Source: Octopus sinensis
Taxonomy: Eukaryota
NCBI RefSeq assembly: GCF_006345805.1
Contig: NC_043006.1
Span: 15,624,001-15,688,000 of the forward strand
DNA length: 64,000 nucleotides
Reading direction: 5' to 3'
The notes below the pieces were generated by a model, which saw nothing but the letters and a program-made list of their open reading frames with translations, searched no databases and was not told the DNA's origin. The translations under genes and the position numbers were made by a program. Numbering within the stretch: position 1 is the first letter of the stretch; every line of letters begins with the position of its first letter. Below, piece after piece: positions 2,161-52,215 of this stretch.

Positions 2161-4820
2161 GTAGTTTTATTTTTATAGCGTGCTTTCACTTCACTACCGA
2201 GCGCAGCTCAGTGTGCCTTAGGTATGTGATGTGATTTGTTGTGATGATCTTATTATTATTATTATTATTATCAGAAATAGGAAGAGAACGATGAACAAGT
2301 AGAATCGTTACCGCACCGAACAAAATACTCAGTGGCATTTATTCCGGCCTTACGTTCTGAGTCAAATTCCCAAAAGTCCGACTTCCTCTCGAAGTCGATA
2401 AAATAAATACCAGTTGCTCACTAGGGTAAATTTAGCCGACTGGTCTCCTCCTCGCAAGACTGCTGACCACAATCTCTTGTTAAATTCAATATTCCGAAGT
2501 AGCTGTGGTCGAGAAGAGAACAATGATATCTAAATACTGGGTGTCCCAATATCCCTTTACGCTAAGGAATCGAGTGTTACGACTTCACATTCGTCTGAAA
2601 GAAATTGTCCTCCATTGACGAGATATATCAGCTATTATCATATTCACTTTCGAATCTGTCAAAATGCATTAAGAATGAATATGTAAGTCATCGCAATCTA
2701 CCTACGATTAATTCAAATTGCACAGTAATATTATATCCGTCTATATATTTGATTCCAATACCAAATCTGATAAACTTCAAGAAAATCTCTATTTCCAAAT
2801 TATATTTAACTCTAATTCTGCTTTAACGACAAGCAGTCTCGCTATTCACGTCATGATAATAATATTTAACAGCACGCTATCATCTAATGCCAAATCTAAT
2901 TCGCATATAAAGTATAATCACCTTTTGATAATTTCGAATAATATGCACCATTAAATTGTCCGTCGGGTTAGAAATATTATTTTATAATTAATGCCATGTA
3001 TGATGTATGCGATTAAGTTAGTTACTTATCGAGTCAGGGAGGAATCCTTTGGATGCAAGTAGAGGCGTATTAAGGGGGAATATTCTCTTATCAGGTACCA
3101 GCGATGGTGTTCTGTCATATATCTACAAAGATATACCGATATATGTATTATGTTACTATACTAGAAAGATTTGAGTTCAATATTAACTAAAAAATGTGGT
3201 ATATTATTAATGTATTTTTATCGATACAGCCAAAACCTAAGTGCCATATTGTCAATATTGCTTATTTTAATGCGTTAAAATAATTTTAAGCGCTGAGTGC
3301 AAAAACGGAAATGTGCTAGATTAAATATATTATTTGGTTTGGTTTTGTTGTTCCACATCTTGACTCAGGTTCTACCAGCTTGATTTCAGCTTTCGTCCAC
3401 GAATTCGACAGACAAAAGTTACCGGTTATGTATTTATGGTTCATTAAATTGATTACACACCCTCAATTTACATATTTATGGTGTTGAATTTGTGCCATAG
3501 AAAAAAATCACCTTTATAATGCTTTATAAAATGCCACTTACGTTATTTTGATTTCTGGATAGTAAAAATTCATAGAATATTTGCGATTATCATACAGGAA
3601 TAAATTTAAGTTATATATTATACAAGAATAAATTTTAAATGTATATCGTACATTTTAAGTTTCATACAAGAATAAGTTTCATACATTTTATGATACAGGG
3701 ATAATCTTAAAATGTATATCGTCACTTTGGCTTACATATTTAACTAAAAGCTTTGTAGTAAATAAGAAATGAAAATATTCACTGATTACTAATTGATGTC
3801 GAAGGGATTAGTAAAACAATTTTGAAAATCATAAACAGGCTAAACATTCATCTCGATTTAGTTATGTTTAAGAAAACATTAATAATCTCATGGGATCCCC
3901 CCATAGCTATGCTAATTAACGTGTTTCACAACTGCTTTCATAATAAATTGATAAAACCTCTGGTAAAATATTAAAAGACACTTAGTCTTTTGGAAGACTA
4001 AATGAGAACACATATATTATGTTATTTGTTGTAGTCATTGGACTTCGGTGAAACTGGAGGCATCGCTTCAGAGTGCAGCGTTTTAGTCGAGCAAATCGAC
4101 CACAGTACATGTTTTTAAATTTGGTACTTACATTATCAGTGTCTTTGGTGTAACTGTTAAGCTAAGGAAATGTGAAACCAGCACGGGTTGTCAAGCGGGG
4201 AAGGCAAACTGACACTTTGTCGTTTACGACGTCGGTGGCTCAAGTTGATCCGCTCAACGAAACAGCCTGTTCTTGAAATTAACGCGCAAGTGACAGAGCA
4301 CTCCACAGATACTCGTACTTTTTAACATAGTTCTCAGAGATTCAGCATGACAGAATGTGACAAGGCTTGTTCTTTAAAATACAGTACAATTTATTTCTGA
4401 GTATCGAAATCATGACCTTACTATTTTCAACCGATCATCCTAAACACTTAGCTACGTATCTTCAGTGGGGAGGCAAGCACAAACACAAAGACAGACAGAC
4501 TCTCTCTATATATATCTATCTCTCTCTCTTTATCTCTCTCTCTTTCTCTCTCTTTCTCTCTAACACATGCACACACGCACGGACAAACGCGGATACAGGC
4601 ATATTCGACGGGTCTCCAAACAGTCGCTGTTTACCAAATTCACCCGCAAGGTATTGGTTGGTGGGAGACCTTTGTAGAAAACACACGCCCAAGGTTTCAC
4701 TTATTGAGAATGAAGCTGAAAGCACATGCTTGCGAAATTTGCTTCTTAAGCAAAAATCCATATACATACATATATACATACCTACATATATGTGTGCACT
4801 TATATATGTATGTATGTATG

Positions 4821-4902
<82 letters not shown>

Positions 4903-5206
4903 CATCTCTTATGCAAAGTCAGAATTCCAGGATCTGGAATTATCCAGAAAAAAAACTTTTTTGCTAGTTTATTTGTCGCTCTGCCTTCTCTCCTGGTGCT
5001 ATATGAACATTTAATGTGGCTTTAGAGTCAGGTTTTGACTGCTATTTCAGCCTGGTGGTATCTCTCAGATAACATAAATTATAATTTTAAATAATTATTA
5101 CCTTAGTAAGGTTTTTATTCCCATGCTGGCCACTTGATAAGATCGATATTTAAATATCGATCTTATCCTCATTTATATAAATATACATACATTCATACAT
5201 ACATAT

Positions 5207-5261
<55 letters not shown>

Positions 5262-5444
5262 CATACATACTTACATGCATACATACATACATACATACAT
5301 ACATACATACGTACATACATACATACATACAACATACATACATACATACATACATACACATACATACATACATATACATACATATATACATACATACATA
5401 CATACATACATATACATATATATATATATATATACATACACGTG

Positions 5445-5770
5445 AAAGGCGGATGGCTCAGTGGTTTGAGCGTCGGGCTCACAATCACGAGGCAGTGAGT
5501 TTGATTCCCGGACCAGAGTGTGGGTGTGTTGTGTTTTGGTGCATGTTTCATTTCACTCAGCTGTAGAAATGAGTTACGACGTCACAGGTGCCAAGCTGTA
5601 TCAGCCTTTACCTTTTCCTTGGATAACATCAGTGGCATGGAGAGGAGAGGCTGGCATGCATAGGCAACTGCTGGTCTTCCATAAACAACCTCGCCCGGAC
5701 TTGCATCTCGGAGGGGAATGCTCTAGGTCCAATTCCATGGTCATTTACGACCGAAGGGGTCTTTTACCAT
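5445..5770 (+). mobile_element. tRNA-derived SINE-like element (family D here)
   Basis: Head with A-box-like TGGCTCAGTGG and B-box-like AGTTTGATTCC, followed by a non-tRNA body. Confidence 0.55.
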
Positions 5771-16801: not shown

Positions 16802-16977
16802 ACATCATTACGTACTATTTAAATAGAACATCTATCGCATATAGCGATAAATTAATATTATACAAAGACAAGGTTGTGAGCAGGCGGAATCGTTAGCACG
16901 TCGAGCAAGATGCTTGGCGGCATTTCGCCCGTCTTTACGTTCTGAGTCGAAATTCCACCTAGCTTGATTTTGCCTAA

Positions 16978-17768
16978 GGCGGCGAGCTGGCAGAAACGTT
17001 AGCACGCCGGATGAAATGCTTAGCGGTATTTCGTCTGTCGTTACGTTGTGAGTTCAAATTCCGCCGAGGTCAACTTTGCCTTTCATCCTTTCGGGGTCGA
17101 TAAATTAAGTACCAGTTACTATCTGGGGTCGATATAATCGACTTAATACCTATGTCTGTCCTTGTTTGTCCCCTCTATGTTTAGCCCCTTGTGGGTAATA
17201 AAGAAATAGAAATAGGTATTTCGTCTGCCGCTACGTTCTGAGTTCAAATTCCGCCGAGGTCGACTTTGCCTTTCATCTTTTCGGGGTCGATTAAATAAAT
17301 ACCAGTTACGCACTGGGGTGGATATAATCGACTTAATCCGTTTGTCTGTCCTTGTTTGTCTCCTCTGTGTTTAGCCCCTTGTGGGTAATAAAGAAATAGA
17401 TATTTCGTCTGCCGCTACGTTCTGAGTTCAAATTCCGCCGAGGTCGACTTTGCCTTTCATCTTTTCGGGGTCGATTAAATAAATACCAGTTACGCACTGG
17501 GGTGGATATAATCGACTTAATCCGTTTGTCTGTCCTTGTTTGTCTTCTCTGTGTTTAGCCCCTTGTTGGTAGTAAAGAAATCGATATTTCGTCTGTCGCT
17601 ACGTTCTGAGTTCAAATTCCGCCGAGGTCGACTTTGCCTTTCATCTTTTCGGGATTGATTAAATAAGTACCAGTTACGCACTGGGGTCGATGTAATCGAC
17701 TTAATCCGTTTGTCTGTCCTTGTTTGACCCCTCTGTGTTTAGCCCCTTGTGCGTAGTAAAGAAATAGC
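16978..17768 (+). mobile_element. SINE family B head followed by four tandem ~184-190-bp body units
   Basis: Units start at 17027, 17217, 17401 and 17585, each beginning TATTTCGTCTG. Confidence 0.92.
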
Positions 17769-20572: not shown

Positions 20573-21127
20573 CATCTGTACATGTATGAGCATCTGTACA
20601 TGTGTGTTAGTGTACACACACACACATGTATAATATATATATAGATATGTTTAAAATATTATTGATTTCGTGTGTCGCTGGTAAATGATGCATTGCTGGC
20701 TATTTTAGTTATCATTTCCAGTTTGAATGACTGAATAAACCAGTTTAGCTAGATGTTCATGAATCTTCTCTCTTGAGTGTGGTGCCTCCATATATATATC
20801 ACATTCTCTTTAAAGCCATCAAGATTTTGATAAGGTATTGTTGTAGTAGAGAGCTGCTTTATTCCAGCTGTAAATATCTATAGATAGCTGGGAAAGTCTC
20901 CGACGTATTCCGACAGCAAGATAATATAATTTAGAGGAATGTTGGAAGTTGTATGTATATACATACACACACACACTCACGCACGCACACATACACTCAC
21001 AAACATATTAAAACATGAGCAAGCGAAATATTTGACATCATTGTAGAACATTTGATTTATTTCATTTATTATATAAACAGAGTGCAGAGCACTTGTACTA
21101 AATATGTAGTCTCCTACAGTTGTTTCT

Positions 21128-22124
21128 GGAACTTTCCAGGAAGTTTCCAACCAATTTTCCAGGAAGTTAGAAAATCCCCGGACGTTTCCATAAAGCATTG
21201 GAATTTTCCAGGAAGTTTCCGATCAAATTTACAGGAAATCGGAGGAATCCCCGGAACTTTCCATGAAATCATCGGAACTTTCGAGAAAGTTTCCGATAAA
21301 TTTCCTGGAAGTCGGGGGAATCCCTGGAACTTTCGAGGGAATCCTCGGAACTTTCCACGAAGTTTCCGATCAATTTTCCAGGAACTAGGGAATCACCGGA
21401 AGTTTCCACGAAATCCTCGGAAATCCAGGAAGTCAGGGGAATCCCGGAACTTTCCATTAAATCATTGGAACTTTCCATGAAGTTTCCGATAACTTTTCAA
21501 GGAAGTTGGGATTGCCCCAGAACTTTCAATCAACCCTCGGAACTTTCCAGGAAGTTTCCGACCTAAATTTCCAGGTAGTCGGGGAATCCTAGGAACTTTC
21601 CATGAAATCATCGGAACTTTCCAGAAGGCCTGTAATTTTCCCTATAATCCGGGGTACTTTCCAGGAAGTTTTCGACCAAATTTCCAGGAAGATGGGGAAT
21701 CGCCGGAAGTTTCCATTAGAAACTCGGAAATTTCCAGAGGAACTTTCCATGAAATCCTCGGAGCTTTCCGACAAGTTTCCGACCAATTTTCCAGGAAGTT
21801 GGTGGAACCTCGGAACTTTCGAGGAAGTTCCGACCAAATTTCTATGAATTCGGGGAGTCCACGGAACTTTCCATTAAAACCTCGGCACTTTCCAGGAAGT
21901 TTCTGATTAATTTTCCAGGAAGTTGGTGAATCCCCGGAACTTTCCATGAAATCCTCGGAACTTCCCAGAAAGTTTCCAACCAAATTTCCAGGAACTTCAC
22001 ATAATATCATCGGAACTTTCCATGAAGTTTCCGACCAAATTTCTAGGATGTCGGGAGAAACCCCGGAACTTTCTATGGAATCATCGGAACTTTCCAGGAA
22101 GATTCCGATCAATTCTCCAGGAAG
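21128..22124. repeat. Degenerate ~73-bp tandem repeat (~13 units) built from 10-11-bp subrepeats
   Basis: Hand consensus GGAACTTTCCAGGAAGTTTCCGACCAAATTTCCAGGAAGTCGGGGAATCCCCGGAACTTTCCATGAAATCCTC, with alternating ~52-bp and ~21-bp modules. Confidence 0.9.
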
Positions 22125-23060
22125 CAGAATTGGCAGTCCGAAGACGATGATGTCCTCCGGCGGCGAGCGGGGTCTCGACTGGTCGGCGGCCGTGCGTATA
22201 CGCGCAAAAAAAACAACGCGCGAAGAAGCATTCGCGGAGCAAAAGTGGTTTGCGATCCGACTGCCGCACACCAACCACGGCACGCGCCAAGGTCAGCGGC
22301 GTAACCTGACCGGGCCCTCGTCTGCGAAGACGAAAACGAAGAGGCTGGGGGTCGGAGGCGAGGCGCGAGAAAATGTGGAAGCGAAAAGAAGAAACAAAGA
22401 TTTCGATTGAGAAAGGACAAACCTACAAGCGTTGACAGGCGGGTGGCGGAGATTCGGGGACGCCCCAGCCGTGTAGAGTCGATCTTGCATTGGTAAGCGG
22501 GGAGATAGTCGAAGGCGGGCGAAAACGGACGTCCAGAGGCGGGCGAAGGTGAGCGTGAAAAGGCTGGCTAAAGCGGGCAAACGCGGGCGTCAAGGGGCGA
22601 GCGAACGCTGCGTCTGAAAGGCGGGCGGTGTGGCGGCGAAGATTCGAGGACGCGCCAGCCGTGTAGAGTCGATCTTGCACTGGCAAACGGGGAGTTAACC
22701 GTTGGCAGAAAGGAGCGAAGAGATCATCCCTTCCAGACGGTCACTTATGCCGATCACCCACAACCCTACATAGTAGTCTGGACCCCCTTGGGGTGCGACG
22801 GTCACCTAGAGCGTGACTATCCAGCGTTGGCCGACCCATAAGCTTACGGGTCCGATTTTTTTAACTTACGGGTCGGACCAAGTCGCTGTATTTACCCGGT
22901 GCATATCGCCACAGACTCCCGGCGGCTGACGGCATCGGTCGCGGCTACGACCACGTGTACGTGGGCGATACCGCGAACTTCGGTTCGTTCTTACGATATC
23001 GGGCACTGTAGCGCGGCGGAGGCGGGCGTCAAAAGGCGGGCGAAGGCCTTTCAACACCCA
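22125..23060. other. GC/CpG-rich block with internal duplicated modules, origin unknown
   Basis: Sharp compositional contrast with the flanks, repeated AGGCGGGCGAA, and an identical core CCAGCCGTGTAGAGTCGATCTTGCA at 22465 and 22655. Confidence 0.8.
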
Positions 23061-23864
23061 TTGCGTTAAGCTTAGCTATTCCTTCCAGAACAGCAACGCT
23101 TCCTAGACCAGACACTGCAACTGGCAACATATAGTGCCTCATCTCAACCTCCAAATTGTACATATCGAAATCTCTCTTCCTGGCCGGCCAGGGATTTTTC
23201 ATCTAAGGCACACCTGGATGATATTGAAACAAACAACTTGAGACGTCACTACATATATTTTCAATGGCCGTTCATCTGAGAATGTATATTCAATAAGATC
23301 ATGGGACAGCGAAAACTCCAAAAGTTTCGCTTAATTCATCTATTATCTCACATCGTAAAAACGGAGTACTTTCCACTATAGTGGAGTATAATAAAAAAAA
23401 ACCTCTGTCATACTTCAATAGAGCACAAAAATATATCGTTTTCCTAATTGAAAACTGCACGATATTAAAACAGTTAAAAATATCATTTAATCAGAGATAT
23501 TAACTAAAGTGCATTATAAAAGAAATGTCCGCACTCTTTAACTGTCTCGAAATTGTGATATGCAGCCATCAAATGTAAAAGGCATCATTGAGTTACTTCT
23601 CTTGCTAATTGTAAGCATACAATACACAAATAAGTAAAAAAATTTTAAATAAAATTTCCACTTACACCATCAAAAATTTGACCCAATAAGAATGATCTTA
23701 ACTGGTATACAATGCATACATGGATACATATAGAATAATATTAGATAATGTAATATAATTATATATATATATTTGTATATGTACATGTAAATTTATATAT
23801 GTATATATATATATACACACACACATATGTACTCATACATGCACACACATACATATATGCATAC

Positions 23865-24340: not shown

Positions 24341-25240
24341 GAACTCTCTCTCCTTCAGGTGCGTGATTAAATGCAGATGTCAAGTTGACCCTAGGTGCCT
24401 CCATGTGGTCTTTGGCATGTTGGTAGAGTATAGAGGACTGCCTTTTATTGTTTCATGGTTTGAAATGTACATTTAGTCTCTCCGCAATGCTTTTAGATGT
24501 CTCACCTATGTATATCATGTTCTTGTCTTCACAAGCACCCTTTACGCACCTTATGCTGTAGACTACATTTCCAGTTCTACAGTTAATGTCAGGGTTAATC
24601 TTACATACCATGCCTGTTGTCATTGATGCATGTGGCATTCTCAAAGAGGTAGTCCTACATAGTTGTGATCTGATGGAGTTCCTTGGCTTTTCAACGATCT
24701 AAATACTGAGCTGAGTTTGGCCTCCTTCAGGGCTTCCTAAATCTTCGGGCTAGTTCTCTATGGGTTGTAGCCTCTACAAACATCACTCATTGGTATTTGT
24801 CGGTCTTGTACGACATGTTCACCCTGTTTGCTTTGTCACAAACTCTTTGTATCCTATTCCAATGTTTACTTATATATTTAGGGCAGGTACCATTGATTTC
24901 ATTACATATAGTGCTATCTAACTTCTTTCTAGCTCCCCTGTATACCCGAAATCTATCTTTCTTATCATATCCAGAGAATTGCATGCTGTGCATAAAGTTA
25001 TGTATATGTTTCTGTTTCGTAGGGTATGCATAGTGGAGACACGTTGATTATTATCCTAACTAAGTTTGCTATCAGTATGCTGATTTTCATTTTGTGTGAC
25101 AAAGCTAAATGATTGTGAACAATATATTTAGAATCTATGAGTTTCGTATAATAGGAGTGGAAGAGCTGCACTCTGTTGTCCACAGTCTCTAACCAAAATT
25201 CAATATCAAGAACAGGGAGTCTATTGTTAGGGTGTCCAGT
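24340..25240 (-). mobile_element. Penelope-like retroelement fragment (RT thumb, linker, GIY-YIG endonuclease)
   Basis: LPVLDIEFW...HSYYTK...SGYDKK upstream of INCRTGNVVYSIRC...YIGETSKSIAERLNVH. Broken by stops and frameshifts. Confidence 0.85.
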
Positions 25241-45164: not shown

Positions 45165-45166
<2 letters not shown>

Positions 45167-46325
45167 CTGCTGCAGTGGATCAAGTGCTTCCTGTCTAACA
45201 GAACCCAACATGTGTATCGAAGGAGTCAAATCCAGCCCAGCCAAAGTCAGCAGTGGTGTCCCACAAGGCACTGTGTTGGACCCACTTCTCTTCATCATCT
45301 ACATAAATGATATTACTGACACCATCAAACACAGTAACATCAGAACCTTCGCTGATGATTCCAAGCTCCAGAAGGTCATCAATGGCGTGGATGACCGAAT
45401 AAACCTTCTGTCAGACCTACTGGCTGTTGTCCAATGGGCGGAAAAGAATAACATGTTGCTAAATGAAGACAAATTCGAACTGATCCACTTTGGAAGGGAG
45501 GACGCTCTGAAACTCCCATACTCTCTTCCTTCTGGAGAAATTCTCATGGCATCCAACAACATCAGAGACTTGGGAGTAAACAGTGGACAACAACATAAGC
45601 TGGGCTACACATATAAGCAGCAAGTTGACATGGCCCGCAGAATGTGTTCCTGGATTCTCAGAACCTTCCAGTCGAGAGATTCCCACGCTATTATCCTTCT
45701 CTTCTCCACTTTTGCCCGACCCCACCTTGAATACTGCTGTCCACTGTGGTCTCCCTACACAAAACAAAATATTATGACAATTGAAGCTCCCCAAAGGTCA
45801 ATGACAAAAAGGTAGATGGCATGTCAGACCTTGACTACTGGGGTAGACTAGAGAAGCTGAAATTGTATTCACTCCAACGACGCCGTGAACGCTACATTAT
45901 CTGTATGATGTGGAAAATATTCCATCAGCACTGTCCGAATGATGTTGGCATCACCTTCAAAATACATCCAAGGCTTGGACCACGTGCCATCCGTCCACAA
46001 CAAAATCTAAATCGCATCACATAACGACAATACGGCACAACTATTTCACCTCAATTGGACCCGCTCTCTTCAACATTACACCAGGACACGTCAAAAAAGA
46101 AACTGACCACACACAAAATCAAGAAGTCTTTGGACAAATTCCTTCAAACAGTACCGGACAAACCACCCACACAACCGGATATGTCTCCGCAAACAATAAC
46201 TCTCTGCTCGAATGGCCTTGGTGCCCAAATCCTGAACTGAAAGACTTCGCCAGGTGGTGCTATTAAGTTAGACATGGCCTGGGCCAATACTGGCCCAAAC
46301 CTTTCTAAGTTATTCTAAGTTATTA
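45165..46325 (+). mobile_element. 5'-truncated CR1/L2-like LINE (RT to 3' end)
   Basis: [30 protein letters not shown] and LKLYSLQRRRER with frameshifts. Tandem TTCTAAGTTA tail. Confidence 0.92.
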
Positions 46326-51120: not shown

Positions 51121-51685
51121 GTTATATATGTGTATAGGTATATATATCTTTGTAAAAAAGAAGTTTGAAAATGCCACTATATTAGATAAAATTTTAAATT
51201 TACATGTTTCGGTTCTTGAAGTAACGAACTTTATCAAAAAGAATTTTTTTATAATAAAGATTATAATGGAATAGTTCATAATTGTTTCATACATTCAATA
51301 GAGTCCATGCTATATACATAAAAAGTATAATGGAACAGTTCATAATTGTTACATACATTCAATAGAGTCCATGCTATATACATTCAATAGAATCCATGTT
51401 TCTTGAAAAGGCGAAAATATATATTATAAGGTGTAAGTCGTTCCGTACTGATTTGTCAAGGTAGTGCAGGAGATCATTATATATTTTACCTTGGTGTCCC
51501 GATGGAGCAACTGTAGTGATTCCTGGTTGTCGTAATTTTGGTCAACTTGTGATTGTTGGGTTTATATCAGTTAAGTCAGTAGTAGCTGTGGTCTCTGGCA
51601 CTGTTCACTGACGTCATATAATTCCAAACCAATCAAACCAAGCTTCAACGATTATAAGGAAAAGACCCCCAACTGTATCCTGTTT

Positions 51686-52215
51686 AGGAAACCAGCCAAG
51701 CAGAACGACAAGTTTGACCACGGAAGAAAAACGTCATCAATTTTTTAGCGAATCAAAATTAGATCTGACCCATAATTGTATCCTGTTAGGTGGCTAGTTT
51801 GACCACGGAAGAAAAACGTCATCAATTTTTTAGCGAATCAAAGTCAGATCTGACCCTTAATTATTTAGGAAACCAGCCAAGCAGAACGACAAGTTTGACC
51901 ACGGAAGAAAAACGTCATCAATTTTTTAGCGAATCAAAATTAGATCTGACCCATAATTGTATCCTGTTAGGTGGCTAGTTTGACCACGGAAGAAAATCGT
52001 CATCAATTTTTTAGCGAATCAAAGTCAGATCTGACCCATAATTGTATCCTGGTTAGTTTGACCACGGAAGAAAAACATCATCAATTTTTTAACGAATCCG
52101 AATTAGACCTGACCCATAACTGTATCTTGTAGGGAAACCAATCAAGCATGGCGACAAGTTTGACTACTGAGGTAAAACGTCATCAATTTTTTGACTAATC
52201 AAAATCAGATCTGTT
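51686..52215. repeat. Minisatellite, six ~65-70-bp cores with a 181-bp higher-order period
   Basis: Core AGTTTGACCACGGAAGAAAAACGTCATCAATTTTTTAGCGAATCAAA..AGATCTG at 51711, 51796, 51892, 51977, 52055 and 52157. Confidence 0.92.

What the first reader, a model, noticed from the sequence alone, without database searches (positions are those of the whole stretch)
21128..23060. Foreign-looking 1.9-kb GC-rich block: tandem subrepeat array joined to duplicated GC-rich modules (possible rDNA spacer orphon)
Seen: an abrupt switch from AT-rich, microsatellite-laden DNA to a CpG-rich block with no microsatellite, no SINE, no convincing ORF, and no TIR or TSD I could find. It is ~1 kb of 73-bp repeats plus ~0.9 kb of GC-rich sequence with internal duplications. 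Known: animal rDNA intergenic spacers, for example Xenopus, combine duplicated promoter modules with arrays of short enhancer repeats. Inference: a displaced rDNA IGS fragment. Alternatives are a viral origin/enhancer region (baculovirus/nimavirus hr-like) or part of an unclassified large transposon.
Basis: partly seen in the sequence, partly recalled or inferred. Interest (0 to 1): 0.75.

Follow-up and report, generated by a model that had tools for sequence, protein, structure and literature searches.

The report
rDNA promoter scrap fused to minisatellite
This block is a decayed piece of the ribosomal RNA gene's predicted promoter and leader, joined to an unrelated 73-base repeat that a DNA transposon family carries around the genome; both were likely patched into a chromosome break, and it is probably inert debris of a kind already known.

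Summary
The block is real but is two unrelated pieces. 22158-23048 (minus strand) is a displaced rDNA fragment: 85-87% identical to the DNA just upstream of 18S in dispersed rDNA copies, which are 98.5-98.8% alike there. It holds the predicted Pol I promoter and a deleted 5' ETS. The 73-bp array (21128-22124, 44% GC) is not a spacer repeat: it is absent from three complete spacers. It is a dispersed minisatellite, and 22 of 45 loci examined touch an arm of a non-autonomous hAT-like element with 8-bp target duplications. No arm is left here. There is no target duplication, poly(A) or ORF, but there is a 4-bp microhomology and a short inverted echo of the target, so capture at a break is the likely route. 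The array-rDNA and right junctions are bridged in independent runs. rDNA orphons are known, and the scan already found similar relics elsewhere in this genome. The more interesting results are family-level: the array is repeatedly chained to two other minisatellites and to rDNA, and 24 of 30 dispersed 28S R2 sites carry R2.

The parts
21003..21131 (.). Old dispersed repeat cut by the insertion; its last 4 bases (GGAA) are also the first 4 of the array (microhomology)
   Evidence: Four other copies match 68-77% up to this point and then continue differently
21128..22124 (+). 73-bp minisatellite (about 13.6 unit lengths), built of three shuffled ~21-27-bp sub-blocks; STAT-like TTCN3GAA and kB-like motifs (motif names recalled)
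   Evidence: 211 genome candidates, 40 scored; 25+25 motifs against shuffle means 1.7 and 2.4
22125..22157 (.). Poorly aligned linker between array and ETS
   Evidence: Only 8-11-nt blocks align to the reference ETS; bridged by contigs of runs X1 and X8
22158..22272 (-). Distal 5' ETS, ending about 120 nt before the 18S start
   Evidence: Matches L044:1555-1687; 18S starts at L044:1809
22278..22763 (-). Proximal 5' ETS with the native duplicated module; about 200 bp and 500 bp are missing relative to present units
   Evidence: a contig of run X8 skips 22465-22654, one module length
22764..23048 (-). Predicted RNA polymerase I gene promoter; start-like motif TATGTAGGG at 22772-22764
   Evidence: 29 spacer copies of this module stop matching at 22764; the window has the gene-type version; 1534-1598 bp from motif to 18S in 3 units; consensus from PMC2590618
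23060..23100 (-). Short inverted echo of the interrupted repeat's junction sequence; possible repair scar
   Evidence: Summed score 91 against background mean 59; 4 of 3000 random 60-mers of the window reach it; right flank otherwise near single-copy

Best explanation
The block is a two-part insertion, a decayed rDNA fragment (predicted Pol I promoter plus 5' ETS, minus strand) fused to a 73-bp minisatellite that is not part of the rDNA spacer, and both were likely captured as DNA at a chromosome break by end-joining and are likely inert. Shown: the identity of each half, the array's residence in a non-autonomous hAT-like element elsewhere, the lack of element ends, target duplication and poly(A) here, and the bridging of the array-ETS and right junctions in other runs. 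Inferred: loose rDNA (excised circles or fragments) and a piece of the break-prone array served as patch material; microhomology at the left end and a short inverted copy of the target at the right end are repair scars. The same process would explain why this array is chained to a 34-bp and a 22-bp minisatellite and to 28S at other loci. R2 cutting may be one source of loose rDNA (family-level inference; this locus has no R2).
For: rDNA identity: 749/862 and 737/872 aligned bases against two units, upstream of Rfam 18S. About 280 bp upstream of the predicted start are included, which ordinary pre-rRNA would lack. Other orphons run up to ~17 kb across terminator and spacer, and 18 of 18 boundary pairs examined show no flush duplication of 7 bp or more (one orphon counted twice). 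Array: 22 of 45 loci touch a hAT arm, 8 on both sides, at variable breakpoints; 6 of 6 copies with both ends found have an 8-bp duplication, 3 exact and 3 with one mismatch. Chains: 5 independent array-to-34/22-bp-satellite joins against about 0.03 expected on generous coverage assumptions. Junctions: X1 bridges 21946-22167; X8, another organism label, bridges 21946-22464 and 22981-23600, and 21006-21159 only just.
Against: No empty allele was seen, so the order of the two captures (together or in turn) is unknown. Leaving the window out, array-rDNA adjacency rests on one event (L061/L067 share an ancestor), P about 0.09. The window's array is not specially related to those two (ranks 118 and 569 of 741 pairs). 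The inverted echo is modest (4 of 3000). Most multi-piece orphons keep one polarity, which RNA templating would also give. Inertness was not tested. Array interiors are not collinear between hAT copies whose arms are ~2% from their majority, and this model does not fully explain that.
Confidence: 0.72

Rival explanations
1. Retro-chimera: a reverse transcriptase (R2, or a Penelope-type enzyme) primed at this site, copied an array transcript and jumped to a spacer-promoter/ETS transcript.
For: R2 is present in several lineages, and 24 of 30 exact 28S R2-site matches have an R2-type 3' end upstream, some with only 35-200 bp of 28S behind. Template jumping by R2 and carry-over of downstream 28S by R1 are described (PMC2718515, passages). 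The ETS piece stops ~120 nt before 18S, which could be a processing end (inference).
Against: No R2 sequence, poly(A) or target duplication at this locus. The piece includes ~280 bp upstream of the predicted start. The reported R1 carry-over is up to 14 nt, whereas orphons here reach ~17 kb.
Confidence: 0.15
2. The array is a former IGS subrepeat, or a satellite beside the nucleolar organiser, and the block is one fragment of an older rDNA region.
For: The fragment is old (13-15% from present units), so the spacer may have turned over. The array and two other minisatellites recur next to rDNA, R2 ends and telomere-like repeats. IGS-linked satellites outside rDNA are reported in moths (PMC10257491, passages).
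Against: The array joins inside the ETS here and inside 28S at L061/L067, neither a spacer position. It has no similarity to present subrepeats. Only 3 exact matches to a 27-nt unit motif exist genome-wide, so no homogeneous block is assembled.
Confidence: 0.1
3. Viral origin or enhancer region (baculovirus/nimavirus hr-like), or a selected STAT/NF-kB enhancer.
For: Palindromic sub-blocks; 25 STAT-like and 25 kB-like motifs per kb, 21 and 24 per kb in 34 other arrays; motif columns slightly better kept (0.81 against 0.77, P=0.03).
Against: 0 matches in viral contigs. No viral or host gene family in 101 window frames; only a GIY-YIG and an RT scrap. Motif density follows from one repeated unit. 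The conservation difference is small and the scan favours well-matching units.
Confidence: 0.03

Closest known systems
rDNA orphons and displaced rDNA pseudogenes (Robicheau et al. 2017, PMC5381670, abstract and outline seen; Childs 1981 and Guimond & Moss 1999 seen only as reference titles in PMC3225859)
   Same: Decayed rDNA including spacer sequence at sites away from the arrays. The Guimond & Moss title describes a Xenopus ribosomal orphon flanked by low-copy repeats.
   Different: Here the fragment is only promoter plus ETS, the neighbour is a transposon-borne minisatellite, and many sister orphons are young (98.5-98.8% alike), scrambled and R2-capped.
Spacer-promoter IGS of arthropods, e.g. 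Bacillus stick insects (PMC2590618, passages)
   Same: Repeated promoter-like modules in the spacer that end at a TATA>TANGRRRR-like motif; long ETS (1.7 kb there, 1.5-1.6 kb here).
   Different: The motif here is a near match (TATGTAGGG in gene copies, TATATTGAGGG in spacer copies), the start is not mapped, and the 73-bp array is not among the spacer repeats.
Satellite-assisted rDNA spread in Lepidoptera (PMC10257491, passages)
   Same: Satellites linked to rDNA and to its spread through circles or ectopic recombination.
   Different: There the satellite lies in the IGS of whole clusters; here three minisatellites absent from the present IGS are joined to broken fragments.
Non-autonomous hAT elements with captured internal DNA (8-bp duplication as hAT hallmark: recalled)
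   Same: The array's carrier family has short imperfect terminal repeats, 8-bp duplications, internal deletions and captured scraps.
   Different: This locus has neither arm; array interiors differ from copy to copy; no matching transposase was sought.

Membership tests
rDNA orphon (right half) | Homology to the organism's own rDNA unit | tested here: met
   85-87% to DNA upstream of 18S
rDNA orphon (right half) | Lies outside a tandem rDNA array, in non-rDNA flanks | tested here: met
   No Rfam hit in the 64-kb window; right flank near single-copy
rDNA orphon (right half) | Has escaped concerted evolution | tested here: met
   13-15% diverged plus two large deletions, against 1.2-1.5% among four other copies
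Xenopus-type IGS enhancer array (left half) | Repeat is part of the spacer between 28S and 18S | tested here: not met
   Absent from 3 complete spacers (L041/42, L043/44, L202/203) and from all other rDNA stretches fetched, except the two array-28S junction loci
Pol I gene promoter | Start-like motif upstream of 18S, duplicated as spacer modules | tested here: met
   a resemblance to an arthropod consensus
Pol I gene promoter | Mapped transcription start | not testable with these tools
   No RNA holder listed
Non-autonomous hAT (carrier family of the array) | 8-bp target site duplication | tested here: met
   6 of 6 copies with both ends found
Non-autonomous hAT (carrier family of the array) | Short terminal inverted repeats | tested here: inconclusive
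   Ends are constant but match each other only imperfectly over ~11 bp
Non-autonomous hAT (carrier family of the array) | Autonomous partner with the same ends | not tested
   Not searched
Non-autonomous hAT (this locus) | Element ends and duplication around the block | tested here: not met
   Neither flank matches an arm; no duplication
R2 3' transduction (this locus) | R2 3' end joined to 28S at the R2 site | tested here: not met
   No R2 or 28S here; met at 24 of 30 other sites
Viral hr or enhancer | Match to viral DNA or flanking viral genes | tested here: not met
   the collection searched may hold few large animal DNA viruses

The most novel reading that the evidence does not exclude
This genome runs a shuttle of tandem-repeat cargo. 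R2 cutting releases fragments from the rDNA array, and a break-prone, hAT-borne minisatellite packed with STAT- and kB-like motifs is rewritten from ectopic donors at each repair, stitching rDNA, R2 ends, two other minisatellites and telomere repeats into new sites. The window would be an old product that set a Pol I promoter pointing into such an array.
Probability: 0.2. Interest if true: 0.65.

Novelty: new member of a known kind. Interest (0 to 1): 0.33.

Why it matters
The locus itself is probably debris. It does mark a candidate Pol I start site and spacer promoters for this animal, likely an octopus; my paper searches found no such description. The family-level pattern is testable. If R2-occupied units are really over-represented among dispersed rDNA copies, R2 would be a source of rDNA orphons, a mechanism for a long-noted but poorly explained spread. 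If array interiors are rewritten inside otherwise young transposon copies, the array is a natural reporter of ectopic repair.

Tried and rejected
Array as present-day IGS repeat: rejected. Whole block as a repeated element: the array-ETS junction occurred in no listed match but the window itself (40 of 147 candidates scored, 150 of 356 matches listed). Common ancestry of the window's array with the 28S-joined arrays L061/L067: not supported. Coding potential: no Pfam family. Viral match: none. A large homogeneous satellite block: 3 exact matches only. An error-prone polymerase signature in arrays: ts/tv 1.22 against 1.28 in arms, so none. Hairpin potential is only moderate (z -2.5, 2 of 200 shuffles as good). 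RNA: no RNA holder listed, which says nothing on expression. Summed contig depth over the array (hundreds to thousands) was far below that over the rDNA half (up to 10^5) in four runs, but the tool warns that this is no copy number. Rfam searches failed, so L188 and L190 are annotated by BLAST and by reading only. Paper searches without a relevant hit. No supplements were read; a description of cephalopod rDNA spacers or of this transposon could sit in supplements or repeat libraries that I did not see.

Full report
Setting. The window is G000:C10:15624001-15688000 in a 2.72-Gb animal assembly. It is likely an octopus: my inference, and earlier scan notes use the same word. The window is mostly 26-47% GC, has no Rfam match, and yields only a GIY-YIG and an RT scrap among 101 of its 113 longer frames.

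Observation. The 73-bp array runs 21128-22124 and is made of three shuffled sub-blocks. It is 44% GC with ordinary CpG content; only 22125-23048 is GC- and CpG-rich. Contigs of run X1 (possibly the source sample) and of run X8 (a different organism label, about 2% diverged) bridge the array-ETS junction. X8 also bridges the right junction and, only just, the left one. The block is therefore not an assembly artefact and is older than the split between those labels, or an old polymorphism.

The right half is rDNA. It has 280 genome candidates, 40 scored, on many chromosomes. Flanks of ten of them showed GC-rich islands of up to ~17 kb, in which Rfam finds 18S, 5.8S and 28S. On the minus strand the window matches from ~1.8 kb to ~120 bp upstream of 18S, with two deletions of about 200 and 500 bp. 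Identity is 749/862 and 737/872, whereas four other copies are 98.5-98.8% identical to the same reference, so this is an old orphon. The module 22764-23048 is repeated in the spacer, and 29 spacer copies stop matching at exactly 22764, on a motif resembling the arthropod start consensus TATA>TANGRRRR (PMC2590618, passages). The window carries the gene-type version, 1534-1598 bp before 18S in three units. I read this as the Pol I promoter and spacer promoters; the start is predicted, not mapped. The 190-bp-spaced duplication lies downstream, in the ETS, and is native to the unit.

The left half is not spacer. It was found in none of the rDNA stretches, nor in L073-L100. These include three complete spacers, whose repeats are 141, 190 and 18 bp. 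It is its own family (211 candidates, 40 scored). I examined 45 array loci including the window: 22 touch an arm of one composite element, 8 on both sides (three pairs or trios are recent duplicates and were not removed). That element has constant ends, 912 left-end and 283 right-end candidates, captured mariner-, SINE- and LINE-like scraps (my reading), and 8-bp duplications in 6 of 6 copies with both ends found; it is hAT-like on that recalled hallmark. Six of 14 copies chosen by their ends alone held an array. Arrays join the arms at variable points, and the window's copy has no arm.

Chains. Arrays without arms are often joined to other tandem DNA. Five independent joins to a 34-bp or 22-bp minisatellite were seen against about 0.03 expected. 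Two loci share one 28S-array-34-bp junction. Telomere-like repeats lie beside two arrays, and one rDNA orphon has the 22-bp satellite on both sides. Array-rDNA adjacency alone is weak once the window is left out (P about 0.09).

Mechanism. Neither this block nor 18 orphon boundary pairs show a flush target duplication of 7 bp or more. The block interrupts an old repeat at a 4-bp microhomology, and the right flank begins with a short inverted echo of that junction (4 of 3000 background windows). It includes DNA upstream of the predicted start. I infer capture of DNA at a break by end-joining. Reintegration of extrachromosomal circles as a source of orphons is proposed in PMC3225859 (passages), and displaced rDNA units with spacer are known in human (PMC5381670, abstract). 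Whether array and rDNA arrived together is unknown.

R2. Of 46 genome matches to the 28S sequence behind the R2 site, I read 30 of the 31 exact ones: 24 have an R2-type 3' end upstream, 1 has long intact 28S, and 5 begin at or near the site without recognisable R2 (three C18 sites are duplicates of one event). One copy keeps a 639-aa RT frame. Contig depth of one R2 group was 1-6% of ETS depth in three runs but 16-32% in the fourth. The tool warns that such sums are not copy numbers, and other R2 groups were not measured, so enrichment among orphons is suggested, not shown. An earlier scan note describes ectopic R2-28S pads in this genome. This locus has no R2.

Unexplained. Arms of the transposon are ~2% from their majority (copies picked by likeness of their ends, which biases this low), but array blocks are ~20%, with the same ts/tv. 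Interiors are not collinear between copies: 11 of 1431 pairs of array pieces share 150 nt at 88% or more, several of them duplicates or two halves of one locus. Units are hardly more alike within than between arrays (67% against 66%). Repair of a fragile array from ectopic donors would fit but is untested. The STAT- and kB-like motif density is striking but follows from one repeated unit, and evidence of selection is slight.

Verdict. Interest 0.33, carried mostly by the family-level leads.

Noticed in passing
L207-L236 (genome-wide 28S R2 sites); L202:1-3594: 24 of 30 exact matches carry an R2-type 3' end from several lineages; L202 keeps a 639-aa RT frame; a ~1.8-kb insert without a detected RT match ends at the same site in L188, L220, L229, L232 and L233.
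   Followed up: partly
L041:~4330-4530: The start of the spacer holds scrambled short copies of the 28S R1 and R2 target regions, possible decoy sites; a 22-bp R1 site in the IGS is reported for D. ananassae.
   Followed up: no
L167-L174, L065/L066, L124, L129, L138: Non-autonomous hAT-like family, 0.8-6 kb or more, 8-bp duplications, hundreds of ends, captured TE scraps; L178 is a fold-back copy with two left ends.
   Followed up: yes
L060:966-2345, L143:4767-9001, L036:4056-7273: 34-bp and 22-bp minisatellites, dispersed (187 candidates for the 34-bp unit) and chained to each other, to the 73-bp array and to rDNA.
   Followed up: partly
L194/L195 (C25, ~50 kb from the contig end): About 4 kb of telomere-like repeat joined to ~14 kb of scrambled rDNA spacer.
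   Followed up: no
L190-L193, L076, L077, L085 (C18:3.8-4.75 Mb and C11612): Several duplicated, scrambled rDNA orphons clustered on one chromosome arm.
   Followed up: no
L042:1811-4455 and 4456-5613: 18S spans 2645 bp and ITS1 contains a 347-bp tandem repeat.
   Followed up: no
G000 contigs C4852, C6303, C8597, C8750, C10266, C12603, C12762: Intact R2-site-like motif without this animal's downstream 28S sequence; possibly rRNA genes of contaminating organisms.
   Followed up: no
window 16878-17767 and 51683-52130: Other tandem arrays (184-bp units of a SINE-like repeat; 85/181-bp units).
   Followed up: no
window 24456-24698 (-) and 45165-45812 (+): GIY-YIG (Penelope-like, recalled) and RT fragments.
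   Followed up: no
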